Assembly (NCBI GenBank): GCA_024639905.1
Contig: JAHEGE010000008.1
Span: 12,023 to 76,022, forward strand
Direction of reading: 5' to 3'
Length of the DNA stretch: 64,000 nt
DNA from: Gammaproteobacteria bacterium
Lineage (GTDB): Bacteria; Pseudomonadota; Gammaproteobacteria; Pseudomonadales; Pseudohongiellaceae
The notes beneath the pieces were generated by a model. That model worked only from the letters and a program-made list of their open reading frames with translations. It was not told the origin of the DNA and searched no databases. The first letter of the stretch is position 1, and each line of letters opens with the position of its first letter. The position numbers and the translations under genes were made by a program. Below are positions 30,405-46,484 of the stretch, in pieces.

Positions 30405-31931
30405 CTATTCGAATGCGTCAGGGCACAGCGTTGCGAAGGGGGCCGAGCGGCCAATAGACGAGGTGTATAGCGGCTGCCTAACCTGCCAAACGCTCTCGGT
30501 ACGCACCGTGTTTTTAAGAGCGCTAAAACCCAGACAACCCTCTTCCCAGGGCTCTGCCAGAAACTCAAGCACCGCAGCAATCGTCTCTCGCGGCGATGTC
30601 ACCACCGACTCATAGTCTACGACGTGGATGTCCTCTGGAAACAAACTCTGCCAGTGGCGCATGAGATCTTGCTGCTGTGCGATCATATGTTTGATGGACA
30701 CTAAATCGGTCGCATAGTGCTGCCCTGGGCCGAAACGCGTTGCATAAATCGACCATGCAATGTCCCGCCAAGCTCGCTGTGTGACGAGGATTTTAGCCGA
30801 AGGAAACAGCGCTTTGATCAATCCCAAGTAGAGGAAATTGTCGGGACGCTTGTCGGTCAGGCGTAGATGGGGGCCAAATACACGTGTGGACTCGATCTGG
30901 TAATGCGCCGCCCATTCCTGTATCTGACCCGCGCTTATCGCCTCGCATCCAACCGGATAGTCCGGCAATTCTTTGGCGACAAGGCGCGCAAAAAACTCAC
31001 GCTCGCCGGCCGGCGTAAACGCGGAATGTGCCGCGAGTATTTGCTCAAGCAGCGTCGAACCCGAGCGAAACATGCCGCAGATAAAAACAGGTGCTGATCC
31101 GTCGCCTTGCTGGCGCTTTGAAAGCCAATCACTCGTAAAACATGACTTAATCGCGTCGAAATTGGCGACGACTTGAGAGGCGTCATAAGCCTCATAGCTC
31201 GCCTTGTCGACACGGTTAGCGAAATCGTAATGTGTGAGTGCAGCGGGAAAGTTGCCGCATTGCTCTAATGCCCGTGCCAACGCGAAGTGCAAATCTGGGT
31301 CATGGCTCGTTGCCGCGCGCTGTCTGAGTTGAATGAGTAGCGGTGCCTGTTCATCGCGAAAACCTTGTGCATCGACGAGTCGCGCGAGCGCAGGTTCGTA
31401 GTGAGGATCGAGCGCGAGGCAATGGGAAAAAAGCGCCGTCGCCTTCTCACGATCTCCTTGCTGTTCGGCAAGACAGCCGAGATTGAAATGTGCGGGAACA
31501 TACCCCGGGTTCAGCATCAGCGCCTGCTGTAAATGCCGTTCCGACGCGACGTCGTCGCGCAGCTGTTCTGCGTAGGCAGTGGCGATATTCAACTCGATTT
31601 CTTCGGGCCGCTCGGCCTGCAGCTCGATCGATTTCTTATAAGCCACTATCGCAGCCGCCGCATCACCAGCCCGCGATAACAAATACCCGTAGTTGTATTG
31701 TCCTATCGCAGAATGGGGGTTGCGCACTAGGTAAGCAGCATAGGCTTCTATTGCAAAGGGCAATTGCTGTGCAGTGTGGCAGCGCGCACTCAGCGCCTCA
31801 AGCACGGCCATGCTGTCGGGAAGCAAGACTGCAAGCCGACACAAGGACGCAATAGCCGCCTCAGCATTGCCCTGTGCATCGCTGGCTCGGACCAACCCCC
31901 AAAGTGACTGCAGGTCTTCCGAGTGCGTCAT
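30405..31931 (-). CDS. TPR-repeat protein fused to a sulfotransferase domain (508 aa)
   Basis: The N-terminal ~230 aa carry TPR signatures (AIEAYAAYLVRNP, AAIVAYKKSIELQ, LQQALMLNPGYVPAHFNLG). The PAPS 5'-PSB loop GMFRSGST is encoded at 31053-31076. No signal peptide. Confidence 0.8.
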   Translation of the reverse strand: MTHSEDLQSLWGLVRASDAQGNAEAAIASLCRLAVLLPDSMAVLEALSARCHTAQQLPFAIEAYAAYLVRNPHSAIGQYNYGYLLSRAGDAAAAIVAYKKSIELQAERPEEIELNIATAYAEQLRDDVASERHLQQALMLNPGYVPAHFNLGCLAEQQGDREKATALFSHCLALDPHYEPALARLVDAQGFRDEQAPLLIQLRQRAATSHDPDLHFALARALEQCGNFPAALTHYDFANRVDKASYEAYDASQVVANFDAIKSCFTSDWLSKRQQGDGSAPVFICGMFRSGSTLLEQILAAHSAFTPAGEREFFARLVAKELPDYPVGCEAISAGQIQEWAAHYQIESTRVFGPHLRLTDKRPDNFLYLGLIKALFPSAKILVTQRAWRDIAWSIYATRFGPGQHYATDLVSIKHMIAQQQDLMRHWQSLFPEDIHVVDYESVVTSPRETIAAVLEFLAEPWEEGCLGFSALKNTVRTESVWQVRQPLYTSSIGRSAPFATLCPDAFE

Positions 31932-31934
31932 GAT

Positions 31935-32696
31935 TTAAGCGTTACGCGCGTCTGCGCGCAGGCGTAGCGGTCGCCAGCACTGCATCGAATAATGCATCAG
32001 ATACATGGGGGCGAGCCAACCGTTTGAGTGCAACTCTAGGACAACCTCGGGATCCAATGCATTGAGCTTTTGCAAATTGATGCCTACATAATGAGCGAGC
32101 ACTTGCTGCTCATTAGACCCTTCGACATTGTAATTCGCCTGCATCTTATCGAGCACTTTGTGTTTCACTAACAATCGCGAAAACTCAGCGGTACGCTTGC
32201 GCTCTTCTTCGTACTCGCCAACGAACTGCATTATCGCTTTCACCTCTGCTGAGGGCTGGCTGTCGACGAAGAATGGGAAGCGCGCCTCTTCAGTGACCGT
32301 GGGCCCGGCTCGATCGAGTACCAGCGCCCTACTGCCGTTATCCTGCGACGCAAGAGCGAAGGGATAGCAACGAAGATAGGAAGGGACATAACACAGCGGG
32401 TCCCACTGACCCTGCTCATCGATAAACACATTACCGCCACCGGGCAGGCCCAACACAGCCATGGGGACAGGGTCTTCCATATTGGAAAATACGATCGGAT
32501 AGTGGCGCTGTGCGCTACTAATCTCAACCATCGTGAGAGGAATCGCTCGTTCGTCTTTCACAAAATCGAAAGGCCGCTCGTTAGGCGTGATACCCAAACT
32601 ACCGTGGTCTTCTAGAGTCAGGACTTCGGGTTGTTGATAGAGGAATTTCTGACCTGCCATCGCCGCTAGAGGATTCTTCTGGTTTTCTTCAGTCAC
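31935..32696 (-). CDS. SapC family protein
   Basis: 253 aa, ...QRHYPIVFSN...PMAVLGL...CYVPSYLRCYPFAL..., as I recall the SapC (PF07277) pattern. GTG start with an AAGGAG RBS. 3-nt gap to the downstream sulfotransferase gene. Confidence 0.8.
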   Translation of the reverse strand: MTEENQKNPLAAMAGQKFLYQQPEVLTLEDHGSLGITPNERPFDFVKDERAIPLTMVEISSAQRHYPIVFSNMEDPVPMAVLGLPGGGNVFIDEQGQWDPLCYVPSYLRCYPFALASQDNGSRALVLDRAGPTVTEEARFPFFVDSQPSAEVKAIMQFVGEYEEERKRTAEFSRLLVKHKVLDKMQANYNVEGSNEQQVLAHYVGINLQKLNALDPEVVLELHSNGWLAPMYLMHYSMQCWRPLRLRADARNA

Positions 32697-32779
32697 GCTT
32701 TACTCCTTGTGTTTCACTTGAGCAGTCTCACTGCTGTCGTCGCTAACGCTAATAAATAGTAGTGGCAGGGCTATTCCTG

Positions 32780-33505
32780 TTAGTCGGCTCGCAGCCATCC
32801 AGTTAGCGCATAGCGCGGCTTCGTGGCATACGGCGCCACATAGGAGACTTGGTGGTCGCGCGGCACCTTAAACAGGCTGCAACTGTTAAACGCGGGCACG
32901 TGGGTGTTGGTGACGCCTTGCCCGTCTAAAAATTGCAGTAGCCCACCCCAGTGAGATTCCCAGTCTTTAGTGAGATTTATCACACAGGCGTAACGCCTAT
33001 CGTCGCCGGTCGTTGAGCTGTCATTGTGCTGTTTCAAGAAATGACCCGGAGCGAAATACGTTGCTTGTAGCTCGACCTTACGAATCTTTTCATCACCGGT
33101 TAGCTCGCGAAAAAAATCGAGCGAATCTACCGCGTTTATCGCCTCGAGAATCGCGTTAAGCATCAACTGGGGCTCCCACTTATTCGTGTAGGCGTCGATC
33201 ATCGGATAGCGAAAATAGGCGAACTGATAGTCTCTCTTCGCCTGCTCCATCACCGCGCCATGAAATGCCTGGCGGTCTTCAGGAGTCATCGCCGAAAGCT
33301 GAGCGATAGTCTTGGTCATCGCCTCATCGCCGCTGCGATAAGCCATCTCCCAAGGGACCTGCTGTTCGAGACAGCTGTAGGTTTCTTCAGCTGCGAATGC
33401 TTCGAGAAAATTCGGAATCTGCACCGAGCCGGCGCTGGCGAGCTGGTCGCCCCAAGCGGCTTTATCGTTCAGCTTATTGATGAGCAGGCCCTGGAAATTG
33501 TGCAT
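32780..33505 (-). CDS. 2OG-Fe(II) oxygenase family protein (prolyl-hydroxylase-like), paralog of 36727-37500
   Basis: HxD in GHFLKQHNDS, WGGLLQF, distal His in VPRDHQVSYVAPYATKPRYALTGWL. The internal ATG at 33505 is preferred over 33589. Confidence 0.7.
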   Translation of the reverse strand: MHNFQGLLINKLNDKAAWGDQLASAGSVQIPNFLEAFAAEETYSCLEQQVPWEMAYRSGDEAMTKTIAQLSAMTPEDRQAFHGAVMEQAKRDYQFAYFRYPMIDAYTNKWEPQLMLNAILEAINAVDSLDFFRELTGDEKIRKVELQATYFAPGHFLKQHNDSSTTGDDRRYACVINLTKDWESHWGGLLQFLDGQGVTNTHVPAFNSCSLFKVPRDHQVSYVAPYATKPRYALTGWLRAD

Positions 33506-33615
33506 AACCTTTTTCTCTGGAATTTGATGCTTTTTACAAGCTGCACGATACCATATCGCCGAGAAATCAAGAACCCACGCCCAGCGCAATCGAGAGTTTA
33601 TGATAAGCTTCGAGG

Positions 33616-34806
33616 ATGGACACCACCATCGACACTATTCGCGAGCGAGTCGCCGACGCGCTTAATCAAGGCCAGCTTCCGCAAGCCCTCACGTTGCAGG
33701 CAAGTCTGTGCGATCTGTGCCCAGAGGATGCCGAGGCGTATCACCGGCTCGGGGTTCTTGAAGAGGAAGCGGGAACTTTACTCGGCGCCACCCGCGCACA
33801 CCTTCGATGTCTTGCCTTGGCTCCGACTGTCCCCAAGGGCTATCTCTATACTGGCTACTGCCTGCAACGGCTAGGCCATATCGACGCGGCCGCGGCCCTA
33901 TACTCGCTTGGTGCCGACCTCGACGAAGGCGTGCTCACTCTCTGGCGCTCGGAACAGCACTCACCCTCCTCTCGGCAACGCTCAGCCGCGGCCAATGACA
34001 CACTGCGTGCACATCTCTCTGCGCTCCACCGCGATGCTGTCGGCGCGGCTGCCACCTGCCGGCGCGTGGCAGAGGCGATTTGGACGCGGACACACGACCA
34101 GGCTTACCAATTTCCATGTGACGAACAGCGGCCCCAACTTTTTTATCTGCCGAGCCTTAGCGCGCGTCCTTTCGAAGACTCTCACCACTGGGAATGGGCC
34201 CGGCAACTACAGCGTGTTAGCTCTAATATCGCGCAAGAGCTGCACAATGCGTTGCCCCGTATCCGGAATGAAGGCCGGCCCTACTTGCCCTCCGGCACTC
34301 AGGCCGGCAGCGCCTTCACCGAACTGGTCGGTTCGTTGAACTGGACCGCGCTGGACCTCTTTATCGACGGTTATGCCAATACCGCACTGACGCCGTTCTT
34401 TCCAGAGACGCTAGCCGCGCTCGCACAGGCGCCGCTGTACGGACTAGAGGAGAGGCCGTTCGAAGTCTTTTTTTCATTGCTAAGGCCCGGGCAGCATATA
34501 AAGCCGCATTACGGCCTTTCGAACCATAGCCTCACGGTGCATCTACCACTCGTGATACCAAAGGAAAGTTGGCTGCGCGTCGGTGGCGAAAAGAGGCATT
34601 GGAAACAAGGTGAGCTCACAGTCTTCGATGACACCTTCCTACACGAAGCCTGTAACGAAAGCGAAGACGAGCGCATCGTACTCATCTTCTCCATTTGGCA
34701 TCCTGAATTAAACGAAGCGGAACGCGAGGCTATTAGGCGGTCTTTCCGAGCGAGGCAGCGGTGGCTAGCCATGCGCCGCCTTCCCAATGCCGACGACCTT
34801 AGCTAA
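33616..34806 (+). CDS. TPR-repeat protein fused to an aspartyl/asparaginyl beta-hydroxylase-type domain (396 aa)
   Basis: N-terminal TPRs (AEAYHRLGVLEEE, GYLYTGYCLQRLGHIDAA). The C-terminal LRPGQHIKPHYGLSNHSLTVHLPLVIP...VFDDTFLHEACNES...ERIVLIFSIWHP matches the Asp_Arg_Hydrox pattern. Confidence 0.8.
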   Translation: MDTTIDTIRERVADALNQGQLPQALTLQASLCDLCPEDAEAYHRLGVLEEEAGTLLGATRAHLRCLALAPTVPKGYLYTGYCLQRLGHIDAAAALYSLGADLDEGVLTLWRSEQHSPSSRQRSAAANDTLRAHLSALHRDAVGAAATCRRVAEAIWTRTHDQAYQFPCDEQRPQLFYLPSLSARPFEDSHHWEWARQLQRVSSNIAQELHNALPRIRNEGRPYLPSGTQAGSAFTELVGSLNWTALDLFIDGYANTALTPFFPETLAALAQAPLYGLEERPFEVFFSLLRPGQHIKPHYGLSNHSLTVHLPLVIPKESWLRVGGEKRHWKQGELTVFDDTFLHEACNESEDERIVLIFSIWHPELNEAEREAIRRSFRARQRWLAMRRLPNADDLS

Positions 34807-36684
34807 TCAATCGAGACAACCATTCCTCGTCAGCGCCTCAATGAGGGGCGCAAGGTGTGTTTCGAAAGGTTGCCACCGGCCAATGCGCTTCTCGGAGATC
34901 GCCTGCCTAACCTGCAACTCACTAAAGGTAAAACTCGTAGACACCTTCTTGTGGAAGTTCAAACAGTCATCACTCCAGGGTAAGCCGCAGAAGCTGGTGA
35001 TGCGCTGGCCCTGCTGCAGCGGATCGGCAACTAGCGACTCATAGGTCACATCTAACACGCGGCCCGGCGCTAGCGTCGACCAATGGTCCATAAGCCTTTG
35101 TGCTACCGCCACGGCATGGGCGAGTGACTCGAAATCGCAGGCATAGTTGTGCCCTGCGGGGAACATGCGCGTGTAGATGCTCCAACAGATATCTCTTGGA
35201 TCACGGCGCAGCTGAATTATGCGGGCGCGCGGAAACAGTGAAAGAATCATGCCCACGTGATGAAAATTTTGCGGCATCTTGTCAGTAACGAAGTGACTCG
35301 AGTCGTGTCCGATCGACGCTTCACGGTACTGCGGCGTTTTATCGTAATAGTGCTGTGCGAGCGCCTGCCATTGTCCTTGCGTCATTTCCGCAGGCGGCGG
35401 CAGCAACTTTGCCGCAACCTCGTTTCGATACTTCGAAGCCAAGAAGCCCAGCGCGTCGTTCTCGCCGCCGGCCGTTACCTGTGGCAGTTGCGCTAGCAGA
35501 CGCTCCACGAGTGTCGTCCCGGAACGCGGCATGCCGACAATAAATAGCGGTGTAGGCCGCCCTTCGTCGCTTGCACAGACGTGCCGCGCTGAGAATTGTG
35601 CAATTGCCTCCTCGCATTGCTCCGTGTGCGCGGCGATGCTGTACTCAGCGCTTGCCACCGACATGCTTGCGCGCTGCTGGGAGTTTGCCTCGCTGTAGGC
35701 GGAGAAAGCCTTATTAACATCACCTAATCGCGCACTCGCATCGCCACGCACATACTCGATGACCTGACGCTCATAGGCTGTCATCGTCGCCGTGTCTATG
35801 CTTTCTTGTAATCGGCTCAATAGCGCGCCTAGCTCATCATCCTCCGCAATTTCGAGAAGCACGCTCCACGCCTCGACATTGTTAGGTTGCCTCGCTACCG
35901 ACAATTCGCTTGCGGCGACCGCAGAGGCATAGTCACCGCGTAAACGCGCAAGTTTGGCGCACAGCAAATGGAACTCGCTGGAATCTGCGCCCACGCTTGC
36001 CGCACTCTCAAGACATTCGGCGCAGCGCTCTACTTTACGCGCAAGCAGATTAAGATCGGCGAATTTGACGTACTCGACAGCCCCTGGCGTGATGAGGCTC
36101 AGATACTGCTCATATGCCGCAATCGCTAAATCATAATCACGCAGCCTTCCCGCTGCCAGCGCCAGCTCTTGAGCGACCCGGCTGTTTTGCGGCAGCGCAT
36201 GCTGCAGTTTCCTTAACAAGGCTACTGCTCTATCCCAAGCTTCCAGCAACCCCAGAGCCTGTGCCTGCAGCAACTGGCTTTCGAGGTGCTGGTGCGGAAA
36301 GCTAACCAGCTGTGCGAGCGCCGAGTGCGGCGCATTGAGTTCTATTAGCAATCGGCTGACATTTTGCGAAAAGCCTTCATCAGTCCCCCCCGCGCGACCT
36401 GCGCGTTCGGCCATGGCGATTGCCGCAGGGAGATCGTTCGCCCCGCGTAGGCACACGGCGTAGTTGAACGCGATATCGGCAGCTTGCGGCTCACGTTCTA
36501 GCGCATCGGCAAGCAATGCTCCCGCCTCGGCGAAGCATCCCTCCTGCATTAGCAGCGTGCCCATACCATAGAGCCCATCGGCGTTATCCGGCGCTGCGGA
36601 GATGAGCTCCGCATACAGCTGTTTAGCCGTCGCGAGTTCGCCTCGGCGGTGAGCCTCTTCAGCTTGTTGGATTAAAGAGTTCAT
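34807..36684 (-). CDS. TPR-repeat protein fused to a sulfotransferase domain (625 aa)
   Basis: About 350 aa of TPRs, then GMPRSGTT (encoded at 35512-35535) and RDPRDICWSIY (3'-PB-like). No signal peptide. Its stop codon abuts the stop of the convergent gene. Confidence 0.8.
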   Translation of the reverse strand: MNSLIQQAEEAHRRGELATAKQLYAELISAAPDNADGLYGMGTLLMQEGCFAEAGALLADALEREPQAADIAFNYAVCLRGANDLPAAIAMAERAGRAGGTDEGFSQNVSRLLIELNAPHSALAQLVSFPHQHLESQLLQAQALGLLEAWDRAVALLRKLQHALPQNSRVAQELALAAGRLRDYDLAIAAYEQYLSLITPGAVEYVKFADLNLLARKVERCAECLESAASVGADSSEFHLLCAKLARLRGDYASAVAASELSVARQPNNVEAWSVLLEIAEDDELGALLSRLQESIDTATMTAYERQVIEYVRGDASARLGDVNKAFSAYSEANSQQRASMSVASAEYSIAAHTEQCEEAIAQFSARHVCASDEGRPTPLFIVGMPRSGTTLVERLLAQLPQVTAGGENDALGFLASKYRNEVAAKLLPPPAEMTQGQWQALAQHYYDKTPQYREASIGHDSSHFVTDKMPQNFHHVGMILSLFPRARIIQLRRDPRDICWSIYTRMFPAGHNYACDFESLAHAVAVAQRLMDHWSTLAPGRVLDVTYESLVADPLQQGQRITSFCGLPWSDDCLNFHKKVSTSFTFSELQVRQAISEKRIGRWQPFETHLAPLIEALTRNGCLD

Positions 36685-36726
36685 AGACCCATCTTTATCG
36701 ACTGTTCGCTATGGTAGTATTTTGCC

Positions 36727-37500
36727 ATGACAATGAAGAAACCTCTCACACTTGCACCCACCCTCTCCATATCGCCTTGGCGACAGGTCTTCGCCGATGA
36801 GGGACGAGTGCATATCCCTAACTTCCTTAGCGAGACGAGTGCGGATCAACTTTTCCAGTGCCTCGATCAGCAAGGCACATGGAATCTGGTGTGCCAGCAA
36901 GACGGGCAGCACGTGGACCTAAACGATACCATCGAATCGGTATGGAACGCAGAGCAGCTCGCACTATTCACAGAAAAGCTGCACGAGCAGGCGACGAATC
37001 GATTCCAGTATCTGTATCGGACGATCCCCCTTTACGACGTTTTTCATCAAAACCTACTGCCGGGACATTTCCTCAACGAGGTGTTTTCTTTCCTCAACAG
37101 CCCTGCGTTTCTCGATTATCTACGCGCCACGCTCGAAATGCCTAAAATCGGCTTCGCAGACGCACAGGCGACGTGTTTCAGTGGCGGGCAATTCCTCAAT
37201 AAACACGACGATAACGTGCCAGGAAAACGACGACTCGCTGCCTATGTGCTTAATCTAACCCCCTCGTGGAATACGAACTGGGGAGGGGCGCTGCAGTTCT
37301 ATGATGCGAGCGGGGCTTGCACCGAGTCTTTTTTTCCCAGTTACAACGCGCTCAATGTGTTTCGTGTGCCGCAGCCCCACGCGGTGACCTATGTGCCGCC
37401 TTTCGCTACAGGTAAGCGCTTATCGATTACAGGTTGGTTACGCGAGGGCGAAGACCCGAGCGCTGGGTCTAGTGAGGCACCACATCGAACGGCGCGGTAA
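36727..37500 (+). CDS. 2OG-Fe(II) oxygenase family protein, paralog of 32780-33505
   Basis: IPNFL, GQFLNKHDDN (HxD), WGGALQF, VPQPHAVTYVPPFATGKRLSITGWL. The 17-aa C-terminal extension overlaps the convergent gene. Confidence 0.7.
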   Translation: MTMKKPLTLAPTLSISPWRQVFADEGRVHIPNFLSETSADQLFQCLDQQGTWNLVCQQDGQHVDLNDTIESVWNAEQLALFTEKLHEQATNRFQYLYRTIPLYDVFHQNLLPGHFLNEVFSFLNSPAFLDYLRATLEMPKIGFADAQATCFSGGQFLNKHDDNVPGKRRLAAYVLNLTPSWNTNWGGALQFYDASGACTESFFPSYNALNVFRVPQPHAVTYVPPFATGKRLSITGWLREGEDPSAGSSEAPHRTAR

Positions 37501-39298
37501 GGCGATAGTCGTTTTCTGCGCCTTGAAACGCAAAAGTGCCGTGCCAAGTGTATGAAGGGAACAACACTAATTGCCCCGCCTGCGGCCGAATAATTCGCTC
37601 TACAACCTCTCGCTCGCCGAGCATCAATGCGCTTTCGCCGAATTTAATGCAGCCTGCATTCTCCTCTTGCTGCGCCAGCGTTTTAGGCAGCGTGATGTAA
37701 CAGGCAGAGCTGACCCAGCCTTCGGTATGCACATGGTTTAGGTGAAAACCCGCAGGTTTAAGCTTTACCGACCACGAGCCTGAGAAACTAAATCCACGTG
37801 AAACGCTCGCTGGCAGGCGCCGCAGAAACGGGTGTTCTGAATCTCTAGTGAATCCGCCAAGGTACTGCTCGACAACATCTGCCAACGCAGTCTTGTACGC
37901 AGCGATCACCGGGTGCGGTTTATGCAATAGGCGCCCGGGCGTTTGCGTGCCTGATTTGAGAGTCTGCCGTGAAGGAGCGAATTTGGCCTGATGCATGCCC
38001 AGCAGCACTGTATCGAGTTCGGTGAGGAAATCGCGAAGGCTTGTGTAGCCATCAGGCACTGGCAGCATGAACTCGCCGATGTGGTTGTCGTAGTCAATAA
38101 GCCAGCGGTAGCGATCGTCGCCGTTTAGCCGCCAACAGAGACTCTGCAATGCCCAGCTCAATTGATTATCTGGCGCAAACGCCAACAGCCTTTCGACCAG
38201 CCTTTGGGCTAATTCGATCTTGCCTTGAGTGATATGCAGTCGCGCGAGGTCTTGTCCGATTCTCAGATCGAAGGTCTGCCCTAACGCCCGCGTAAGCGCG
38301 GCCTCGGCCTCGTCATAGGCAAGGCGGTTAGCAGCGAGCTTACCCTGCGCATGCAGCAGCGCCGCCGTTGTATTTTCCCGCAGCGCCTCATCAACCTGCA
38401 GTTGCGCGGCCTCATCTTGGCCGGTCGCGAGCAGCGCGTTGATATACGACAATCTGAGCTCATCGTCCTTTGGCGCTCGCTGAATCGCCTGTCGATAACT
38501 ATCCTCGCTACGTGCGTGCTGGCCAGACTGCCAATAAAACTCATGCAGGGTTTCGTGCGCTAAAACAAAGCCTGGATTGCTCGTAAGGCTCGAAAGGTAG
38601 TGTTGCTCCGCTTTGTCATGTTGGCCCGTCTCGAACAAGGCATTCGCGTAATTGTAATGAATCTCCGCGCTGTCTGGTGCGAGCACCAATGCCTGTTCGT
38701 AATGTGACAAAGCGAGCGGGAGCTGATCGTTGAGTTTGTAACTCAGTGCTTGATTGTGGATGGCTGTGACATGACTGGGATTTAGTGCCAAAGCGCGCTG
38801 GTAATACTCAGTCGCTTTAGCGAACTGCTCCAAGGCTTTATGCGCATCGCCCAATCCGGTGAGCGCGACAACGTCGCTAGGCTCGAGTTCGATAGCTTGC
38901 CTAAGCGTCGCCATTGCGGAATCGGGATCGGTCGAGAGTAATAAAAGCCCCAAATTTTTTAAGGCGTCTTGAAAATTCGGCCGCAGAGCTAGGGCCTGAC
39001 GATAATGTGTCTCAGCGAGGGTACCCTCGTTAAGCTTAGCGTAAACATTCGCTAGATTATTGTGAACTTCGGGTTGATTTGGCGCACGCGCCAATGAGCG
39101 CTTTAGGAACACGATCGCATCCTTCGTGTCGCCCTGCCCGGCACTGGCTAGTCCAGCCAGATGGAGTAGGTTCGGCTCTTCTGGAATTTTTTTCAGAAGA
39201 GCCTGGATTTTTCCTAGTACGGACGGATCGCCTGCGTTCACCGCCGCGTACAACTGCCCTAGTAACTGGTTGAACTGTTGGGATTTATCTACGGCCAT
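37469..39298 (-). CDS. TPR-repeat protein fused to a 2OG-FeII_Oxy_5 (TIGR02466-like) domain (609 aa)
   Basis: About 400 aa of TPRs (AIVFLKRSLARAPNQPEVHNNLANVY...). The C-terminus has GFHLNHVHTEGWVSSACYITLP...GQLVLFPSYTWHGT. The ATG at 39298 is preferred because 39334 lies inside the upstream terminator hairpin. Confidence 0.75.
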   Translation of the reverse strand: MAVDKSQQFNQLLGQLYAAVNAGDPSVLGKIQALLKKIPEEPNLLHLAGLASAGQGDTKDAIVFLKRSLARAPNQPEVHNNLANVYAKLNEGTLAETHYRQALALRPNFQDALKNLGLLLLSTDPDSAMATLRQAIELEPSDVVALTGLGDAHKALEQFAKATEYYQRALALNPSHVTAIHNQALSYKLNDQLPLALSHYEQALVLAPDSAEIHYNYANALFETGQHDKAEQHYLSSLTSNPGFVLAHETLHEFYWQSGQHARSEDSYRQAIQRAPKDDELRLSYINALLATGQDEAAQLQVDEALRENTTAALLHAQGKLAANRLAYDEAEAALTRALGQTFDLRIGQDLARLHITQGKIELAQRLVERLLAFAPDNQLSWALQSLCWRLNGDDRYRWLIDYDNHIGEFMLPVPDGYTSLRDFLTELDTVLLGMHQAKFAPSRQTLKSGTQTPGRLLHKPHPVIAAYKTALADVVEQYLGGFTRDSEHPFLRRLPASVSRGFSFSGSWSVKLKPAGFHLNHVHTEGWVSSACYITLPKTLAQQEENAGCIKFGESALMLGEREVVERIIRPQAGQLVLFPSYTWHGTFAFQGAENDYRLTAPFDVVPH

Positions 39299-39314
39299 CG
39301 CCTTTCCCCTGATC

Positions 39315-39345
39315 AAAAAAAAACGGCGGGCCAAGGCCCGCCGTT
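39315..39345 (-). terminator. Rho-independent terminator after the TonB receptor 39371-42193
   Basis: Stem AACGGCGGGCC / GGCCCGCCGTT with a 2-nt loop, followed on the minus strand by a run of 9 T. Confidence 0.7.
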
Positions 39346-39370: not shown

Positions 39371-42193
39371 TTACAGCTTGAAGCTCGCACCAATGAACAT
39401 GCGTGGTCCTAGCAGCGAGTAAGTAGACGGGAACGTGTTGCTTTGCTCCCCTGCAGAGCCCACTTTATCAGGCAATGCATCAGTTGCGTTCTGTACACCA
39501 ACCGTCACACGAGCGCTCTCGTTGATCTGGTAAGCAGCGCTGAGGTCGAGGTAGTAGATAGAGCCGATCCTTGGAGCCGCAAGAGTGGCTGCATCGACAG
39601 GGCCGTTCGCAATGCGATCGTCTTCTACTTCACCCAGGAAACGCAGCAAGCCCGAGACCGTCCAGTCGCCTGAAGTCAGTGTCGCACGCGTGTTCCAGCT
39701 CACGTCAGTGTAAGGCGAACCACAAGTGTTGCCGAAGCTGCCGGCACAGTTGTCGACACGATCAGCAAGAGCCGCAACAGGCGTGGTGTCGAACTTATCG
39801 AGGAACGTGCTGTTGAACGTCACGTCTAGAGTCGAACCTGCGCCACCGATACCGAAGTCGAGGTTAGTCGTATAGTTGACGTTTAAGTCAACACCGCTAG
39901 TCTCGATGAGGCCGATGTTTGAGTTCAATACGTTAACCAGGCCAACGTTGCCGTCTGGACGACGCGAGATCGCCTGACAGAATGGCGACGCGGCGTCTTT
40001 AACGACGTTGTAGCAGAGGTCGAGTACGTTAGCAGTGCTGCCGCCGAGTACGCTGATCGCGTCTTCGATTTCGATGCTGTAGTAGTCAACAGTGATATCT
40101 AGGCCGTCTAAAGGCTGGATGATCGCGCCCACGGTGAACGTGTTCGAAGTCTCTTCCTTCAGGTTAGGGTTACCACCGAAGTTGCCTTGGATTTGATCGT
40201 TAGCTTGAACGAAAACACCCACGTCAGCTGCCGCTACGCCAGTCGCCTGACACAGTGCCGCGTCGGTAGTGCCCGCGATGAAGCCGTTAGACGCACAAGG
40301 GTCAGATGCGCTTGGGAAGCCATTGCTCTGGCCCAAGAACAGCTCTGATACGTTTGGCGCACGCACCGACTCTTGGTATCCCACTCGGAAACCAACCATG
40401 TCAGTTGGCGAGTAGTTAACAGAGGCAGCGAATGAGCTCACCGGTCCAATGTTCGAGTAGTCTGACGTTCGAGCCGCAGCCCAGAAAGTCAGGTCTTGAA
40501 CCATAGGACGGTCTTGCATGATCGGCATAGAAATCTCGCCGAAGAATTCCGCAACGCTGTAGCCACCTACAGTAGGCTTACCGGCGTTGAAGCCGAGCAC
40601 GTCACCGGCAGACAGGAAGCTGTCTGGACGGAAGCTTGAGTAGTCAGCGCGGTGCTCGTAGCCGACAACAATCGCCGTTGACGCGCTAGAGCTTGGCAGT
40701 GTGAACACTTCACCCGATACGCTCGCCTGAATGACTTCTTGCTCGATGCTAGTCAGGTTAGTCGCGCCGATGTTGACGAAATCGATCGCAGCTTGTGAGA
40801 TGTTGCCGGCGCCAAAGATGTTCATTGGCGCACAGCCACCTGAAGTATCCTGACAGGCGAGGCCGTCGTCAGTCACCGACGCCGCTTGTACGAAGCGCGA
40901 CGCAGAAACGTCATTGTTCAGTACGTTGCTGTTGTCGAGGTTCGAAAGGCTGTAAGACGCATCGAACGACCAAGTGTCGCTGAGGTCGCCTGAAGTGCCA
41001 ACCAAGATGCGGAACGCGTCGCGCGTGTCGATTGACTGACGCGAACCGTTCTCAACCATGCGGCGACCGATATAGATCGGCACGTTGCCGTTCGCATCTT
41101 TAGCAGCACCATTGAACGCAGCTTGTGCGTTAGGGCCGAAGAACGCGCTGTTTGGGTTAACGAAGACTGAGGTGAAAGCAGGCGTTGGCGCCAGTTCCTG
41201 TGGCACGAGGTTGTGTGAGAAGTTCATCTCACTGTAAACACGTACTGAGTCAGTCAGGTCGTAGTGACCCATAGCAGTCATCAAGTAACGCTCCTGCGGA
41301 AGCTGCAGGAAGTTATCAGGTGCGTAGTTGAAGCGGTCGCCCGGCTCCTGCCAAGCACGGCCTTCGCCGTTGGCATCGAAGATGCCCAGAGTGTCGCCAT
41401 TAGGCAGTGTTGGGCCGCCGAATACGCGCGTACCAGGAACGCCAGATGAACCACCCGGAGTCAGAGCGGGCTTGCCGTCTACTGTGCCGTCGCCAAGTGC
41501 GAAGTTAGAGAACTCGCGTGCGTCGGAGAACAATGCCTTACGCGAGAGGTATGACGCGTAAACAACCGCATTACCGCGGCCTTCATCGAAGTTGCCACCG
41601 ATAGTGATGTCGAAGTTGTAACGCTCTGCGTCGCCTTCGCTAGTGATGTCGTAAAGGCTGGTCATTTCGACGCCTTCGAAGTCATCTACTAACTGGAAGT
41701 TAACAACACCCGCGAGGGCATCTGAACCGTATACGGCAGAAGCACCACCAGTCAGCACGTCAACCTGCTTGATTAGTGTAGAAGGGATAGTGTTGAGGTC
41801 GACAACGCCTGTCTGTGTTGCTGGGATGTAACGACGACCGTTAACCAGCACGAGCGTACGCGAAGTGCCGAGACCGCGAAGGTCGACGCGCGCAGTACCA
41901 TCACCAGGGTTGTTCGAGCTTGCGCCGAACGAAGGCACTGTTGAAGGCAGTTCGTTAAGCTTTTGCTCAACGTTCAGGATACCTGAAATCTGGAACTCTT
42001 CGCCCGATACTGTAGTGAATGGGCTTACAGCTGTGAGGTCGGCGCGCGTGATACGTGAACCGGTTACTACAACCTGCTCGATCACTGCGTCGTCTTGAGC
42101 GAAGGTGCTAGGTGCAACACCGAGGGTGCCCGCTGCGGCGATAGCGGCGAAAGCCTGACTAAAAGCCGCTGATTTGCGATTTAATTTGAACAT
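39371..42193 (-). CDS. TonB-dependent receptor (940 aa), tandem paralog 1
   Basis: Signal peptide MFKLNRKSAAFSQAFAAIAAAGTLGVAPSTFAQDD, TonB-box/plug EQVVVTGSRITR...RGLGTSRTLVLVNGRR, and a long beta-barrel. Confidence 0.92.
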   Translation of the reverse strand: MFKLNRKSAAFSQAFAAIAAAGTLGVAPSTFAQDDAVIEQVVVTGSRITRADLTAVSPFTTVSGEEFQISGILNVEQKLNELPSTVPSFGASSNNPGDGTARVDLRGLGTSRTLVLVNGRRYIPATQTGVVDLNTIPSTLIKQVDVLTGGASAVYGSDALAGVVNFQLVDDFEGVEMTSLYDITSEGDAERYNFDITIGGNFDEGRGNAVVYASYLSRKALFSDAREFSNFALGDGTVDGKPALTPGGSSGVPGTRVFGGPTLPNGDTLGIFDANGEGRAWQEPGDRFNYAPDNFLQLPQERYLMTAMGHYDLTDSVRVYSEMNFSHNLVPQELAPTPAFTSVFVNPNSAFFGPNAQAAFNGAAKDANGNVPIYIGRRMVENGSRQSIDTRDAFRILVGTSGDLSDTWSFDASYSLSNLDNSNVLNNDVSASRFVQAASVTDDGLACQDTSGGCAPMNIFGAGNISQAAIDFVNIGATNLTSIEQEVIQASVSGEVFTLPSSSASTAIVVGYEHRADYSSFRPDSFLSAGDVLGFNAGKPTVGGYSVAEFFGEISMPIMQDRPMVQDLTFWAAARTSDYSNIGPVSSFAASVNYSPTDMVGFRVGYQESVRAPNVSELFLGQSNGFPSASDPCASNGFIAGTTDAALCQATGVAAADVGVFVQANDQIQGNFGGNPNLKEETSNTFTVGAIIQPLDGLDITVDYYSIEIEDAISVLGGSTANVLDLCYNVVKDAASPFCQAISRRPDGNVGLVNVLNSNIGLIETSGVDLNVNYTTNLDFGIGGAGSTLDVTFNSTFLDKFDTTPVAALADRVDNCAGSFGNTCGSPYTDVSWNTRATLTSGDWTVSGLLRFLGEVEDDRIANGPVDAATLAAPRIGSIYYLDLSAAYQINESARVTVGVQNATDALPDKVGSAGEQSNTFPSTYSLLGPRMFIGASFKL

Positions 42194-45400: not shown

Positions 45401-45550
45401 CGTTAGTCGCGATCCAGTAACAACTAGTTCTTCGATTGAAGCAGTGTCGTCCTGGGCAAAAGTGCTCGGCGCAGCGCCTATGGCGCTGGCTGAAGCAATC
45501 GCCGCAAAAGCTACTTTAAAGGCAGACGCCCTGTGATTTAGTTTGAACAT
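42485..45550 (-). CDS. TonB-dependent receptor (1021 aa), tandem paralog 2
   Basis: Signal peptide MFKLNHRASAFKVAFAAIASASAIGAAPSTFAQDD, plug EELVVTGSRLTR...RGLGSQRTLVLIDGKR, terminal ...FAGATYRF. Confidence 0.92.
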   Translation of the reverse strand: MFKLNHRASAFKVAFAAIASASAIGAAPSTFAQDDTASIEELVVTGSRLTRSNVTSSVPLVQIGAQEIDSRGGTRIEDVVNILPNVFVAQTSNTANGATGTSTLNLRGLGSQRTLVLIDGKRLPFGSPFSSSANIDLVPARLVERVDVVTAGASAVYGSDAVAGVVNFITKRNFEGFELDYQYGANENPNDNGFMADVLQRNSIADPGGNTGGESGLMSFLMGVNNTQGTGNITIFGSYEDQEELIGGDRDTGACTLGGSSTINCVGSSNFRRFNGTLGNGVSGTVFQQEDGTLTPFAGGAAETYNFGARNHYQRPVERWNLGASGYYEIDGGLEAYADTSYMNNNTTAQIAESASFNRPFETNCSNPLLQAGRGPNGAGAVSFADFTGNFDADGNFVSCNDILAAGGDADVQFINSHRNVEGGPRISTYENSTWRAVAGLRGDLGDDFNFDVFAQFSGTEGTRISQRDLNFDRVQQALFVTTDASGNAVCRDTSGGCLPWNIFERNADGSTAITAEQTAFIQGTGIVTGETEQLVFGGTVEGDLTNYGIQSPFADAGVTGLVGFESRTDKLSRLADDISKKSGGRGLTGTGGATLPIAGQIEVDEIFMEASIPVVTGQPWAEELGISAGYRYSDYTTMGNGLTNSFDADTWFVGASWSPTEDIRFRVNQARAIRAPNVFDLYVGINTGLTDLSTGENGLFDPCASAPGVSPSASAEACARTGASAAQYAGGIEDNPAGQYNIITGGNPNLVAETGETTTFGVVYTPSFVENLSISIDYFDIEVTDAIGSIPAQASLDGCIAGGSGSDTFCSLIQRDTAGTLWLSNDAPGGGIAGISQQNANIASLATEGFDINVAYSYDLGNLGSVNVDYAATVLDTNNATPFSGADAIECVEVYAGQCGLPTPEYTHRALLNWSTPVSGLGVAMTWRHVGETTLFGLDAAAASNREEQMNDYLEERNYLDLSANYAITDNITLRAGANNLLAEDAPLSTNVGTGTGNNNTYPGLYNVSRFFFAGATYRF

Positions 45551-45773: not shown

Positions 45774-46484
45774 CTACGAAGGCCTCACTGAAAAGCGATA
45801 ACCGGCGCCACGTACCGTCTGTACGAGCTTATCGTATTCGATTGTCGCCTCAGGAATCGATGACAAAGCCTTGCGCAGACGACGGATATGGACGTCGATG
45901 GTGCGCTCTTCGAGGTAGACGTTGCCACCCCAGACCGCATCTTGGATATGATCACGACTAAACACTTTCTCTTGGTTCATCAGGAAGAATTTGAGCAGTC
46001 GAAATTCGGTGGGCCCCATGACAACGGGCTTTTCTTCGATTGTGATGCGGTGGCTCGTGGGATCTAGCTGCAGATCGAAGACCCTTAGGGCCTTGTTTTT
46101 CTGCTTGCCATCGACGCGTCTTAATACCGTTTTGATACGGGCAACAAGTTCACGGGGCGAGAACGGCTTGGTGACATAATCGTCTACACCTTCGCTCAGC
46201 CCCTGCACTTTATTGTCTTCGCTGGCTTTCGCCGTCAGCATGATGATGGGAATGTTGGCGGTAAGCTCGTCGCGGCGCAGGCGACGAGCGAGCTCGATGC
46301 CGCTGCCGCCGGGCAGCATCCAGTCCAGTAGGATGAGGTCAGGCTTTCTGTCGACGATGGCGACGTGGGCATCATGGGCGTTTTCTGCGCTCACGCTGGA
46401 GAATCCGGCGAGGTCGAGGGTGATACCCACCATGTCGCGTATTGCGGCTTCGTCATCGACTATTAGGATGGTGGATTCGAACAT
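45774..46484 (-). CDS. phoB: PhoB-type OmpR-family response regulator, with no cognate kinase in the window
   Basis: Collinear with E. coli PhoB from memory: LILLDWMLPGGSGI, DDYVTKPFSPRELVARIK, LDPTSHR, MGPTEFRLL, DVHIRRLRKAL, VQTVRGAGYRFS. Confidence 0.85.
   Translation of the reverse strand: MFESTILIVDDEAAIRDMVGITLDLAGFSSVSAENAHDAHVAIVDRKPDLILLDWMLPGGSGIELARRLRRDELTANIPIIMLTAKASEDNKVQGLSEGVDDYVTKPFSPRELVARIKTVLRRVDGKQKNKALRVFDLQLDPTSHRITIEEKPVVMGPTEFRLLKFFLMNQEKVFSRDHIQDAVWGGNVYLEERTIDVHIRRLRKALSSIPEATIEYDKLVQTVRGAGYRFSVRPS

What the first reader, a model, noticed from the sequence alone, without database searches (positions are those of the whole stretch)
30405..39334. Cluster of four TPR-fused modifying enzymes (two sulfotransferases, an Asp/Asn-beta-hydroxylase type, a 2OG-Oxy_5 type), two paralogous 2OG oxygenases and SapC
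Seen in the sequence: seven contiguous genes, none with a signal peptide. (1) TPR plus sulfotransferase, 508 aa, with the PAPS loop GMFRSGST at 31053-31076. (2) SapC-family protein. (3) A 2OG-Fe(II) oxygenase with HxD and a distal His. (4) TPR plus an aspartyl/asparaginyl beta-hydroxylase-type domain. (5) TPR plus sulfotransferase, 625 aa, with GMPRSGTT at 35512-35535. (6) A paralog of gene 3. (7) About 400 aa of TPR plus a TIGR02466/2OG-FeII_Oxy_5-type domain. Established knowledge: TPR arrays are peptide/protein-binding scaffolds. Human ASPH joins TPRs to the same hydroxylase fold to modify EGF domains. RaxST is a bacterial sulfotransferase acting on a peptide (RaxX). 2OG oxygenases recur next to TonB receptors (fiu-ybiX, piuA-piuC). 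SapC genes are recurrent but functionally unexplained neighbours of TonB receptors. Inference: four different catalytic domains each tethered to a TPR array suggests one shared macromolecular (protein or peptide) substrate that is hydroxylated and sulfated, functionally tied to the adjacent TonB receptors. I know of no characterised system with this composition. I found no convincing precursor-peptide gene, so the substrate is unknown. A lipid or imported small-molecule substrate remains possible, since OlsC and LpxO are the same hydroxylase family acting on lipids.
Basis: partly seen in the sequence, partly recalled or inferred. Interest (0 to 1): 0.85.

Follow-up and report, generated by a model that had tools for sequence, protein, structure and literature searches.

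The report
Receptor-linked TPR tailoring-enzyme gene cluster
A widely conserved gene cluster, apparently undescribed, in marine bacteria couples an outer-membrane TonB-dependent transporter to cytoplasmic sulfating and hydroxylating enzymes, most of them fused to a TPR protein-binding scaffold; what they modify is still unknown.

Summary
All seven genes, both PAPS-loop coordinates and all domain calls hold, and every catalytic residue tested is 87-100% conserved among homologues.

The adjacency is not chance.
- Anchored on the TPR-Oxy5 gene: of 42 genome loci with at least 8 kb on both sides, 40 carry a TonB receptor (TBDR), 32 a sulfotransferase, 24 a methyltransferase, 20 an ASPH-type enzyme, 14 a P4H-type enzyme and 5 SapC.
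- Anchored on TBDR1: 30 of 32 metagenome loci at 49% identity or more carry partner genes.

The real unit therefore includes TBDR1. Its core is TBDR plus TPR-Oxy5, and SapC is accessory. A canonical terminator lies between TBDR1 and gene 7, about 17 nt before gene 7's start. The same design occurs in 26 of 32 related loci.

The nearest solved relatives are protein-modifying enzymes:
- protein-tyrosine sulfotransferases (TPST);
- human ASPH;
- OGFOD1, PPHD and PHD2.

The predicted TPR-sulfotransferase resembles OGT/SPINDLY in architecture. SapC models confidently but has no solved structural neighbour.

I found no precursor peptide, exporter or Fur box, and no paper describing the cluster. A polypeptide substrate tied to the receptor is the best reading (about 0.5), but the substrate remains unidentified.

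The parts
39371..42193 (-). TBDR1: TonB-dependent receptor, 940 aa, with a signal peptide.
   Evidence: Plug and barrel domains. Orthologues are 56-69% identical in loci where TPR-Oxy5 is only 36-52% identical. In the reciprocal scan, 30 of 32 loci at 49% identity or more carry partner enzymes. Only the plug matches solved receptors such as BtuB and CirA.
39315..39345 (-). Intrinsic terminator between TBDR1 and g7: stem AACGGCGGGC, loop CTTG, stem GCCCGCCGTT, then a T9 run. An RBS (GGGGAAAGG) and the g7 ATG at 39298 follow.
   Evidence: Read directly from the sequence. The hairpin was also listed by the scan. The same design occurs in 26 of 32 loci with TBDR directly upstream of TPR-Oxy5.
37469..39298 (-). 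g7: about 10-11 TPRs plus a C-terminal 2OG-FeII_Oxy_5 domain. This is the core partner of the receptor. The listed ORF starts at TTG 39334.
   Evidence: PF13759 at 64.3 bits. H534, H536, H598 and R611 are invariant in 92 homologues, giving an HxH...H plus R site. The ~600 aa architecture is fixed in nearly all of the best 150 of 534 family representatives at E<=1e-30. At least 577 matching genome loci, one genome per species.
36727..37500 (+). g6: P4H-type 2OG oxygenase on the opposite strand, nested between g7 and g5.
   Evidence: PF13661 and PF13640. Nearest solved relatives are OGFOD1 (3.6e-5), PPHD 4iw3 (6.6e-5) and PHD2. H160, D162, H218 and R231 are invariant in 37 homologues.
34807..36684 (-). 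g5: TPR solenoid (residues 4-343) plus a TPST-like sulfotransferase domain (378-625).
   Evidence: Pfam. Matches TPST at 1.7e-14. AF2 model with pLDDT 93.3. Foldseek finds SPINDLY/OGT for the whole protein, and the only sulfotransferases in the top 50 are TPSTs. R387, E408, K469, R494, S502 and S588 are 88-100% conserved.
33616..34806 (+). g4: short TPR region plus an ASPH-type oxygenase domain, on the opposite strand.
   Evidence: PF05118 at 130.5 bits. Matches human ASPH at 7e-21, with its two iron-binding His and its 2OG-binding Arg aligned. H298, H343, R353 and S287 are invariant in 33 homologues. OlsC and LpxO models score far below their cut-offs.
32780..33589 (-). g3: P4H-type 2OG oxygenase, paralogue of g6. 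Its probable start is ATG 33505.
   Evidence: Pfam. 35% identical to g6. H188-N-D190 motif. From ATG 33505 the protein would be 241 aa, the median length of family ORFs.
31935..32696 (-). g2: SapC-family protein. It is an accessory member, present in 12-15% of related loci.
   Evidence: PF07277 at 184 bits. AF2 model with pLDDT 89.7 and pTM 0.85. No structural or profile match in the PDB. Frequency.
30405..31931 (-). g1: TPR plus a second TPST-like sulfotransferase. It probably belongs to a TBDR2-type module.
   Evidence: Pfam. Catalytic residues are present. In near relatives the orthologous ~539 aa sulfotransferase is followed by a gene whose N-terminus resembles those of TBDR1 and TBDR2. 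Sulfotransferases of 519-571 aa accompany TBDR2-type receptors in Woeseiaceae loci.
42485..45550 (-). TBDR2: a 31%-identical paralogue of TBDR1, of the clade found in Woeseiaceae and Kordiimonas versions of the cluster. It has its own terminator.
45774..52148 (.). Neighbourhood kept together in near relatives: a PhoB-type response regulator (45774-46484), TBDR3 (46729-49239), a secreted 609 aa protein with no family match (49405-51234) and a stand-alone TIGR02466 oxygenase (51477-52148, + strand).
   Evidence: The association is seen only in near relatives (76-88% TBDR1 identity), except that the regulator also occurs in L112 (57%). Membership of the system is uncertain.

Best explanation
**What it is.** The region is the enzyme half of a conserved unit whose first gene is the receptor TBDR1.

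**Shown**
- TBDR1 ends in a strong intrinsic terminator placed about 17 nt before the start codon of g7. g7 can therefore be transcribed only by read-through, which should give much receptor and little enzyme.
- g1-g7 lack export signals, and their cofactors (PAPS, 2OG/Fe(II)/O2) are cytoplasmic.
- All predicted active sites are intact.

**Inferred**
- Each TPR-fused enzyme uses its TPR solenoid, as OGT, SPINDLY and ASPH do, to hold an extended polypeptide.
- That polypeptide is then modified in four ways: hydroxylation by the ASPH-type enzyme (Asp/Asn-type beta-hydroxylation); hydroxylation by the P4H-type enzymes (Pro-type); oxidation of unknown chemistry by the HxH Oxy5 enzyme; and O-sulfation by the two TPST-like sulfotransferases. 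In many relatives it is also methylated.
- The polypeptide is functionally bound to the receptor.

**Candidate substrates.** I rank two:
- (a) a peptide-like cargo that enters through TBDR1 and is tailored after import (about 0.25-0.3);
- (b) the receptor pre-protein itself, or another exported protein, modified before Sec export (about 0.2).

The broad claim, a polypeptide substrate coupled to the receptor, gets 0.5.
For: **Coupling to the receptor**
- A TBDR lies within 10 kb in 72 of 84 anchored loci, and in 40 of 42 loci with full flanks.
- It is directly adjacent in 46 loci; in 32 of these it is upstream on the same strand.
- A terminator with no room for a promoter follows it here and in 26 of 32 relatives.
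- The reciprocal scan anchored on TBDR1 gives 30 of 32 loci with partner genes.

**Polypeptide-type chemistry**
- The sulfotransferase domain's nearest solved relatives, by sequence and by fold, are protein-tyrosine sulfotransferases.
- g4's nearest solved relative is human ASPH, with its iron and 2OG ligands conserved.
- g6's nearest are OGFOD1, PPHD and PHD2, all protein prolyl hydroxylases.
- The g5 model is a TPR superhelix plus a catalytic domain. Its best whole-chain matches are SPINDLY and OGT.

**Enzymes are active types:** catalytic residues are 87-100% conserved.

**For candidate (a):** peptide importers (POT, Opp permeases) and an M2 peptidase recur near the cluster in about 10 of 85 loci, spanning Gamma- and Alphaproteobacteria.

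**For candidate (b):** the receptor is the one protein family found in nearly all loci (95% of full-flank loci). It occupies the position of a structural gene followed by a terminator.
Against: - No substrate was identified.
- No inner-membrane transporter, exporter or precursor gene is consistently linked.
- In the TPR part of g5, the invariant and near-invariant positions are Ala/Gly/Leu/Pro repeat residues plus N334. This gives no sign of a conserved specific ligand-binding groove.
- The enzyme complement varies between clades.
- In bacteria TPRs often serve protein-protein assembly rather than substrate capture (general knowledge).
- Homology to TPST, ASPH and P4H is at 20-25% identity. 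It shows the kind of chemistry, not the acceptor.
- Sulfating an imported nutrient has no precedent known to me.
- Hydroxylated or sulfated TonB receptors have never been reported, to my knowledge.
Confidence: 0.5

Rival explanations
1. Small-molecule cargo tailoring. The receptor imports a non-peptide compound. The enzymes hydroxylate, sulfate and (in relatives) methylate it for detoxification, recycling or conversion. The TPR arrays only assemble the enzymes into a complex or dock them to a transporter.
For: - Cytoplasmic enzymes next to TBDRs usually process the cargo (general knowledge: heme oxygenases, siderophore esterases, FiuC acetyltransferase, AtsK).
- Hydroxylate-then-cap logic, with sulfotransferase or methyltransferase, fits natural-product or xenobiotic chemistry.
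- The methyltransferase of relatives is nearest to small-molecule O- and C-methyltransferases.
- The TPR groove of g5 is not conserved.
- The receptor is highly conserved, which suggests one defined ligand.
Against: - All three interpretable catalytic domains are closest to protein-modifying enzymes among solved structures.
- The long TPR solenoid fused to a catalytic domain resembles the OGT/SPY design.
- No inner-membrane importer is consistently linked.
Confidence: 0.22
2. Pre-export modification of the receptor. The unfolded TBDR pre-protein, or another exported protein, is hydroxylated and sulfated in the cytoplasm before Sec translocation. This gives the surface receptor new anionic or metal-binding groups. 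It is sub-case (b) of the best explanation, listed separately because it is the most novel.
For: - The receptor is the one protein family co-encoded in nearly all loci.
- The arrangement of structural gene, terminator, then enzymes matches a design with much substrate and little enzyme.
- TPST, ASPH and P4H relatives in animals all act on secretory proteins (general knowledge).
- Cytoplasmic modification of outer-membrane proteins before export has a precedent in autotransporter heptosylation by Aah and TibC (general knowledge).
Against: - There is no direct evidence.
- Near relatives with a single upstream receptor still carry two sulfotransferases and two P4H-type genes.
- No modified TBDR has ever been reported, to my knowledge.
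- The four conserved Cys pairs of TBDR1 would be reduced in the cytoplasm, so ASPH-like recognition of a disulfide-bonded loop cannot apply (inference).
Confidence: 0.2
3. Biosynthesis of a secreted ribosomal peptide or metallophore that is recaptured by the receptor. This would be analogous to methanobactin operons, which combine the receptor MbnT with the sulfotransferase MbnS.
For: - The cluster combines a TBDR, a PAPS-type sulfotransferase and oxygenases.
- Beta-hydroxy-aspartate is a classical Fe(III) ligand (general knowledge).
Against: - No conserved small ORF was found in about 167 loci, and none is plausible in the window's intergenic regions.
- There is no exporter or peptidase-type ABC transporter in the 64 kb window.
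- No Fur box was found here, and matches in 46 related promoters are no better than in shuffled controls.
- No MbnB- or MbnC-like genes were found.
Confidence: 0.08
4. Envelope lipid or LPS remodelling: OlsC/LpxO-type hydroxylation plus sulfation of a lipid, perhaps under phosphate stress.
For: - g4 gives partial NCBIfam hits to OlsC (2.6e-17) and LpxO (7e-13).
- A PhoB-type regulator lies next to the receptors and is retained in near relatives.
Against: - Scores are far below the family cut-offs: 62.9 against 450, and 48.3 against 500.
- There are no membrane segments.
- The sulfotransferases are TPST-like.
- Pho-box-like sites occur at background frequency.
- This reading does not explain the tie to the receptor.
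Confidence: 0.04
5. Chance adjacency of unrelated genes.
For: None.
Against: Synteny is conserved across two proteobacterial classes in both directions of testing.
Confidence: 0.01

Closest known systems
Protein-tyrosine sulfotransferases (TPST1/2, tick TPST) and bacterial RaxST
   Same: - The 5'-PSB loop (GMPRSGTT).
- The 3'-PB Arg/Ser pair.
- The residues aligned to the TPST2 catalytic Glu, Lys and Ser.
- TPSTs are the nearest solved relatives by both sequence and fold.
   Different: - The enzymes here are cytoplasmic and carry an N-terminal TPR solenoid of about 270-345 residues.
- There is no RaxX-like precursor and no RaxA/RaxB transporter nearby.
- The acceptor residue is unknown.
Human aspartyl/asparaginyl beta-hydroxylase (ASPH)
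   Same: - TPR region followed by the same oxygenase fold.
- Two-His iron site plus Arg/Ser 2OG site, conserved.
   Different: - Only the oxygenase domain aligns; the TPR parts are not detectably homologous.
- There is no membrane anchor.
- No EGF-domain protein is encoded in the locus.
OGT and SPINDLY (TPR superhelix plus a protein glycosyltransferase)
   Same: Overall architecture. These are the best whole-chain Foldseek matches of the g5 model.
   Different: The catalytic domain here is a sulfotransferase or an oxygenase, not GT41. The similarity lies in the TPR part and in the design.
fiu-ybiX and piuA-piuC (TonB receptor plus a 2OG oxygenase of unknown role)
   Same: A TonB receptor paired with a cytoplasmic 2OG-type oxygenase.
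   Different: - g3 and g6 gave no hit to any NCBIfam YbiX/PiuC model.
- The constant partner here is a TPR-fused HxH Oxy5 enzyme.
- No Fur box was found.
- The comparison itself comes from general knowledge.
Methanobactin operons (MbnT receptor, MbnS sulfotransferase)
   Same: A TonB receptor co-encoded with a PAPS sulfotransferase and oxidative tailoring of a peptide (recalled, not tested).
   Different: No MbnA-type precursor, no MbnB/C and no exporter were found.
TBDR-SapC-halogenase clusters of Alteromonadales (for example Colwellia CPS_3734-3737)
   Same: A TonB receptor next to SapC and cytoplasmic tailoring enzymes of unknown purpose (bioRxiv 10.1101/2020.09.28.317438).
   Different: The enzyme set differs (a flavin halogenase there). 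SapC is only an accessory gene in the present cluster.

Membership tests
Protein-tyrosine sulfotransferase (TPST) type | 5'-PSB loop and 3'-PB Arg/Ser for PAPS binding | tested here: met
   GMPRSGTT and GMFRSGST are present. R387 and R494 are conserved in 77 of 77 homologues and S502 in 68 of 77.
Protein-tyrosine sulfotransferase (TPST) type | Catalytic Glu, Lys and Ser equivalent to TPST2 E99, K158 and S285 | tested here: met
   E408 and K469 are conserved in 76 of 77 homologues and S588 in 75 of 77. E408 aligns with the second Glu of the GEET motif in the TPST alignment. The TPST2 residue numbers are recalled.
Protein-tyrosine sulfotransferase (TPST) type | Tyrosine in an acidic peptide as acceptor | not testable with these tools
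   Needs an enzyme assay.
RaxST-RaxX system | Adjacent precursor peptide and a peptidase-containing ABC exporter | tested here: not met
   No conserved small ORF was found. No such transporter is present in the window.
ASPH family (PF05118) | Pfam gathering score and the two-His plus Arg/Ser active site | tested here: met
   130.5 bits against a cut-off of 22.6. H298, H343, R353 and S287 are invariant in 33 homologues.
LpxO / OlsC lipid hydroxylases | NCBIfam equivalog cut-off | tested here: not met
   48.3 against 500 and 62.9 against 450. No membrane segment is present.
YbiX/PiuC-type receptor-linked oxygenases | Match to the family model | tested here: not met
   g6 has no NCBIfam hit. g3 hits only YhhC, at 23.8 bits against a cut-off of 150.
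TIGR02466 / 2OG-FeII_Oxy_5 | Family cut-offs | tested here: inconclusive
   g7 passes PF13759 (64.3 against 27) but not TIGR02466 (22.6 against 62.5). The stand-alone gene at 51477-52148 passes both.
Canonical 2OG oxygenase (HxD/E...H triad) | HxD/E plus a distal His and a 2OG-binding Arg | tested here: met
   Met for g3 and g6 (H160, D162, H218, R231). g7 instead has H534-x-H536...H598 plus R611, which is a variant.
SapC (PF07277) | Pfam gathering score | tested here: met
   184.1 bits against a cut-off of 28.9.
RiPP or methanobactin-type biosynthetic cluster | Precursor gene, MbnB/C-type core enzymes, exporter | tested here: not met
Fur-regulated iron-uptake locus | Fur box upstream of the receptor | tested here: not met
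   The best match is 11 of 19 here. In 46 related promoters the matches equal those of shuffled controls. Only the E. coli-type consensus was tested.

The most novel reading that the evidence does not exclude
The cluster is a bacterial counterpart of the animal secretory-pathway modification toolkit: tyrosine-type sulfation, Asp/Asn beta-hydroxylation and prolyl hydroxylation. It would act in the cytoplasm on the unfolded TonB-dependent receptor encoded just upstream, or on another exported protein, so that a surface transporter carries sulfate and hydroxyl groups that shape ligand capture. The receptor gene plays the role of a structural gene. A leaky terminator sets a high substrate-to-enzyme ratio.
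Probability: 0.2. Interest if true: 0.9.

Novelty: new variant of a known kind. Interest (0 to 1): 0.7.

Why it matters
TonB-dependent receptors are among the most abundant proteins of marine heterotrophs. Many are flanked by cytoplasmic enzymes of unknown purpose, such as ybiX, piuC, SapC and halogenases.

This cluster is a sharply defined and very widespread example. It gave at least 577 matching genome loci (one genome per species), including Halieaceae, SAR92, Woeseiaceae, Colwelliaceae, Arenicella, Xanthomonadales, Kordiimonas and Hyphomonadaceae. Several carriers are cultured.

Its enzymes are bacterial relatives of TPST, ASPH and protein prolyl hydroxylases. Bacterial relatives of these enzymes have few identified substrates (general knowledge). 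Finding the substrate would do one of two things:
- reveal a new class of post-translational modification tied to outer-membrane transport; or
- explain what these receptor-linked tailoring enzymes do to imported compounds.

Either result would make the long-standing question of receptor-plus-oxygenase pairs directly testable.

Tried and rejected
- **Literature.** Nine full-text searches found no paper describing the cluster. They combined SapC, TonB, sulfotransferase, TPR, hydroxylase, TIGR02466, PF13759 and 'repeat-containing sulfotransferase'. Two TBDR survey papers do not mention these genes. One apparent SapC hit was a clay mineral name.
- **Rfam.** Only a tmRNA, far from the cluster.
- **Fur boxes.** None.
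- **Pho boxes.** Background frequency; one 11-of-14 site in the regulator's own promoter.
- **Promoter and terminator consensus scan.** Counts at background.
- **Precursor-peptide search.**
  - Small ORFs of 25-110 aa were clustered across about 167 loci. The largest cluster covers 9 loci and is confined to a few related loci.
  - Intergenic ORFs of the window lack plausible ribosome-binding sites.
- **SapC.** No PDB match by sequence, profile or fold, and no PHROG match.
- **Oxy5 domain.** Matches only uncharacterised structural-genomics entries, 2rg4 and 3bvc.
- **Rosetta-stone fusions of the Oxy5 domain.** None; the architecture is fixed.
- **ASPH-like Cys-loop motif in TBDR1.** I considered it and set it aside, because disulfides would not exist in the cytoplasm.
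- **Shared TGCACAATAA motif upstream of both receptors.** Not found in other loci.
- **OppD/F hits.** Discounted, because generic ABC ATPases also match; only OppA/B/C and POT were counted.
- **Technical failures.** One first set of family profiles was contaminated by TPR regions. Both were redone with domain-only profiles.

Full report
**1. Observation**

Both PAPS loops map to the exact coordinates given. Pfam confirms every domain call:
- TPR plus Sulfotransfer_3 in g1 and g5;
- SapC in g2;
- 2OG-FeII_Oxy_3/4 in g3 and g6;
- Asp_Arg_Hydrox in g4;
- a long TPR array plus 2OG-FeII_Oxy_5 in g7.

The TPR part of g4 is weak in Pfam, but residues 15-112 match consensus and OGT TPRs. g3 and g6 are 35% identical; g1 and g5 are 32% identical. 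None of the seven has a leader peptide or a membrane segment. The flanking receptors and the 609 aa protein do have leaders.

Two small corrections follow. g7 passes the Pfam family but not TIGR02466. Its real start is almost certainly ATG 39298.

**2. Anatomy beyond the given coordinates**

On the minus strand, the stop codon of the receptor TBDR1 (39371-42193) is followed by these elements in order:
- a textbook intrinsic terminator: a 10 bp GC-rich stem, a 4 nt loop and a T9 run;
- a ribosome-binding site;
- the ATG of g7.

About 17 nt separate the T-run from the ATG. That leaves no room for a promoter, so g7 must be expressed by read-through. The same hairpin plus T-run lies between receptor and TPR-Oxy5 in 26 of 32 related loci with that gene order, across Halieaceae, Arenicella, Thalassotalea and Woeseiaceae.

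g6 and g4 lie on the opposite strand, nested between the minus-strand genes. The gaps are 42 and 26 nt (110 nt if g3 starts at ATG 33505), and g6 overlaps g7 by 32 nt. This alternating order recurs in distant relatives.

**3. Is the adjacency chance?**

No. The first evidence came from five homologues of g5 at 29-46% identity. All five loci keep a receptor and TPR-Oxy5 nearby. The four gammaproteobacterial ones also keep P4H-type and ASPH-type genes, and two of them keep SapC, all with unrelated flanks.

*Forward test.* An alignment of TPR-Oxy5 proteins found at least 577 matching loci in a collection with one genome per species, from Gamma- and Alphaproteobacteria. I scored the 84 best loci with domain-only profiles.

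| Partner within 10 kb | All 84 loci | 42 loci with >=8 kb on both sides |
|---|---|---|
| TonB receptor | 72 | 40 |
| Sulfotransferase | 54 | 32 |
| Methyltransferase | 39 | 24 |
| ASPH-type | 30 | 20 |
| P4H-type | 26 | 14 |
| SapC | 13 | 5 |

The receptor is directly adjacent in 46 loci. In 32 of them it is upstream on the same strand.

*Reciprocal test.* A metagenome scan anchored on TBDR1 gave the following for loci with at least 3 kb of flank.

| TBDR1 identity | Loci with partner genes |
|---|---|
| >=49% | 30 of 32 |
| 37-42% | 22 of 26 |
| 35-36% (mostly soil or rhizosphere) | 0 of 5 |

Near relatives (76-88% TBDR1 identity) from marine metagenomes repeat the window's gene order.

*Further points.*
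- TBDR1 is unusually conserved: 56-69% identical where TPR-Oxy5 is 36-52%.
- The window lacks the methyltransferase.
- The window appears to combine two modules: TBDR1 with g7-g2, and TBDR2 with g1.

**4. The enzymes**

| Gene | Nearest solved relatives | Conserved catalytic residues |
|---|---|---|
| g5, g1 (sulfotransferases) | Protein-tyrosine sulfotransferases: 8w5z at 1.7e-14, TPST2, TPST1 | R387, R494 (77/77); E408, K469 (76/77); S588 (75/77); S502 (68/77) |
| g4 (ASPH-type) | Human ASPH, 7e-21 | H298, H343, R353, S287 (33/33) |
| g6, g3 (P4H-type) | OGFOD1, Pseudomonas PPHD, PHD2 | H160, D162, H218, R231 (37/37) |
| g7 (Oxy5) | Only the uncharacterised entries 2rg4 and 3bvc | H534, H536, H598, R611 (92/92) |

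- The AlphaFold model of g5 is confident (pLDDT 93.3). It shows about ten TPR hairpins followed by the sulfotransferase fold.
- Foldseek gives SPINDLY and OGT for the whole chain. TPSTs are the only sulfotransferases in the top 50.
- For g4, the OlsC and LpxO models score far below their cut-offs.
- The Oxy5 site is HxH...H plus Arg, not the usual HxD/E.
- The ~600 aa TPR-Oxy5 architecture is fixed in nearly all of the best 150 of 534 family representatives at E<=1e-30.

**5. SapC**

The model is confident (pLDDT 89.7, pTM 0.85). It has no structural neighbour in the PDB: best E is 1.1 and TM is 0.16 or less. It also has no sequence or profile match there. SapC is therefore not a cupin or oxygenase, and its role stays open. 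Two further SapC homologues were looked up:
- one sits in another receptor, methyltransferase and TPR-Oxy5 locus;
- the other lies next to a fur gene.

**6. What is missing, and weak extras**

Missing:
- no conserved small ORF;
- no exporter or peptidase-type ABC transporter in the window;
- no Fur box;
- Pho-box-like sites only at background frequency.

Weak recurrent neighbours:
- a POT peptide permease with an M2 peptidase, or Opp permeases, in about 10 of 85 loci;
- an ~180 aa secreted protein in 29 loci, absent here;
- a TPR-TonB_C protein and a third 2OG oxygenase type in a few loci;
- a six-gene block downstream of the cluster in Colwelliaceae and a few other Gammaproteobacteria, probably a TonB/ExbBD system; this identification was not checked against Pfam.

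**7. Mechanism**

Shown:
- a receptor-first unit with attenuated read-through into cytoplasmic enzymes;
- enzymes predicted to be active;
- co-inheritance over large evolutionary distances.

Inferred:
- the TPR solenoids hold an extended polypeptide that is hydroxylated and sulfated;
- this rests only on the nearest characterised relatives and on the OGT/SPY/ASPH-like design.

I put 0.5 on a polypeptide substrate tied to the receptor. Within that, an imported peptide-like cargo gets 0.25-0.3 and pre-export modification of the receptor or another exported protein gets about 0.2.

Rivals:
- small-molecule cargo tailoring, with TPRs as assembly scaffolds: 0.22;
- a recaptured ribosomal peptide or metallophore: 0.08;
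- lipid remodelling: 0.04;
- chance: 0.01.

**8. Comparison and novelty**

The individual families are annotated in databases. I found no paper that describes the cluster, and no characterised system has this composition. It belongs with the known but unexplained class of TonB receptors paired with cytoplasmic tailoring enzymes: fiu-ybiX, piuA-piuC and the receptor-SapC-halogenase clusters. It differs from them in its enzyme set and in the TPR fusions. I therefore rate it a new variant of a known kind. If the receptor itself proves to be the substrate, it would be categorically new.

**9. Limits**
- No signal-peptide predictor was run.
- No multimer co-folding was available.
- Model coordinates could not be inspected.
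- Locus counts are not corrected for relatedness between lineages.
- The Fur and Pho scans used E. coli consensus sequences.
- TPST2, ASPH and methanobactin details not present in tool output are recalled from general knowledge.

Noticed in passing
window 39315-39345 (- strand); L001-L083 receptor/TPR-Oxy5 junctions: A canonical intrinsic terminator lies between the receptor and the first enzyme gene, with no room for a promoter. The design is conserved in 26 of 32 related loci and implies fixed, attenuated read-through.
   Followed up: yes
window 33589-33616, 34806-34807, 36684-36727, 37469-37500: Genes alternate between strands with gaps of 26-42 nt, one abutting pair and one 32 nt overlap. 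g4 and g6 are nested antisense within the minus-strand gene series. The order recurs in distant relatives. This may allow antisense (excludon-like) control.
   Followed up: partly
window 31935-32696: SapC gives a confident AlphaFold model (pLDDT 89.7) with no structural, sequence or profile neighbour in the PDB. It may be a fold without a solved representative.
   Followed up: yes
window 37721-37738 (g7 residues 531-536) and homologues: The Oxy5 domain has an invariant H-x-H...H plus Arg site instead of the usual HxD/E...H of 2OG oxygenases.
   Followed up: partly
window 45774-46484; promoter site near 46599: An orphan response regulator passes the PhoB equivalog cut-off (321.8 against 296.2) and has no adjacent kinase. 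It is kept next to TBDR1 in near relatives. One 11-of-14 Pho-box-like site lies in its own promoter, but none lies before the receptors.
   Followed up: partly
window about 42271-42280 and 45631-45640 (- strand): The same decamer, TGCACAATAA, lies 78 and 81 nt upstream of the start codons of the paralogous receptors TBDR1 and TBDR2. It is not found in related loci.
   Followed up: partly
window 49405-51234: A secreted 609 aa protein has no Pfam, NCBIfam or PHROG match. It is encoded upstream of TBDR3, and a stand-alone TIGR02466 oxygenase is divergently transcribed. The trio is kept in near relatives only.
   Followed up: partly
L058:9319-9870, L005:18897-19460 and 27 other loci: An ~180 aa secreted protein, with a weak VasI-like N-terminal motif and a low-complexity linker, recurs beside the cluster in 29 loci. 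It is absent from the window.
   Followed up: partly
L004, L006, L009, L018, L019, L111; L007, L010, L057, L069, L085; window 58606-63945: Peptide importers recur within 10 kb of the cluster in a minority of loci: a POT permease, in four of the six loci with an M2 peptidase, or Opp permeases. The window has an Opp operon about 19 kb away.
   Followed up: partly
window 12054-12414 and 11432-11971: tmRNA (Rfam, 190 bits) lies next to smpB.
   Followed up: no
window 26989-28328 and 29036-30373: Nitrile hydratase beta and alpha subunits, and an O-acetylhomoserine sulfhydrylase, lie directly left of g1. The sulfur-assimilation neighbour may be coincidental.
   Followed up: no
window 52168-53561: An ECF sigma factor with a ChrR-type cupin anti-sigma factor lies next to the stand-alone Oxy5 gene.
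   Followed up: no
L014:3238-3551, L015:2549-2713, L016:3429-3589, L050:6012-6224, L115:5391-5578, L117:4729-4978: A stretch upstream of the cluster is conserved in all reading frames. This suggests a structured RNA or tRNA-like element.
   Followed up: no
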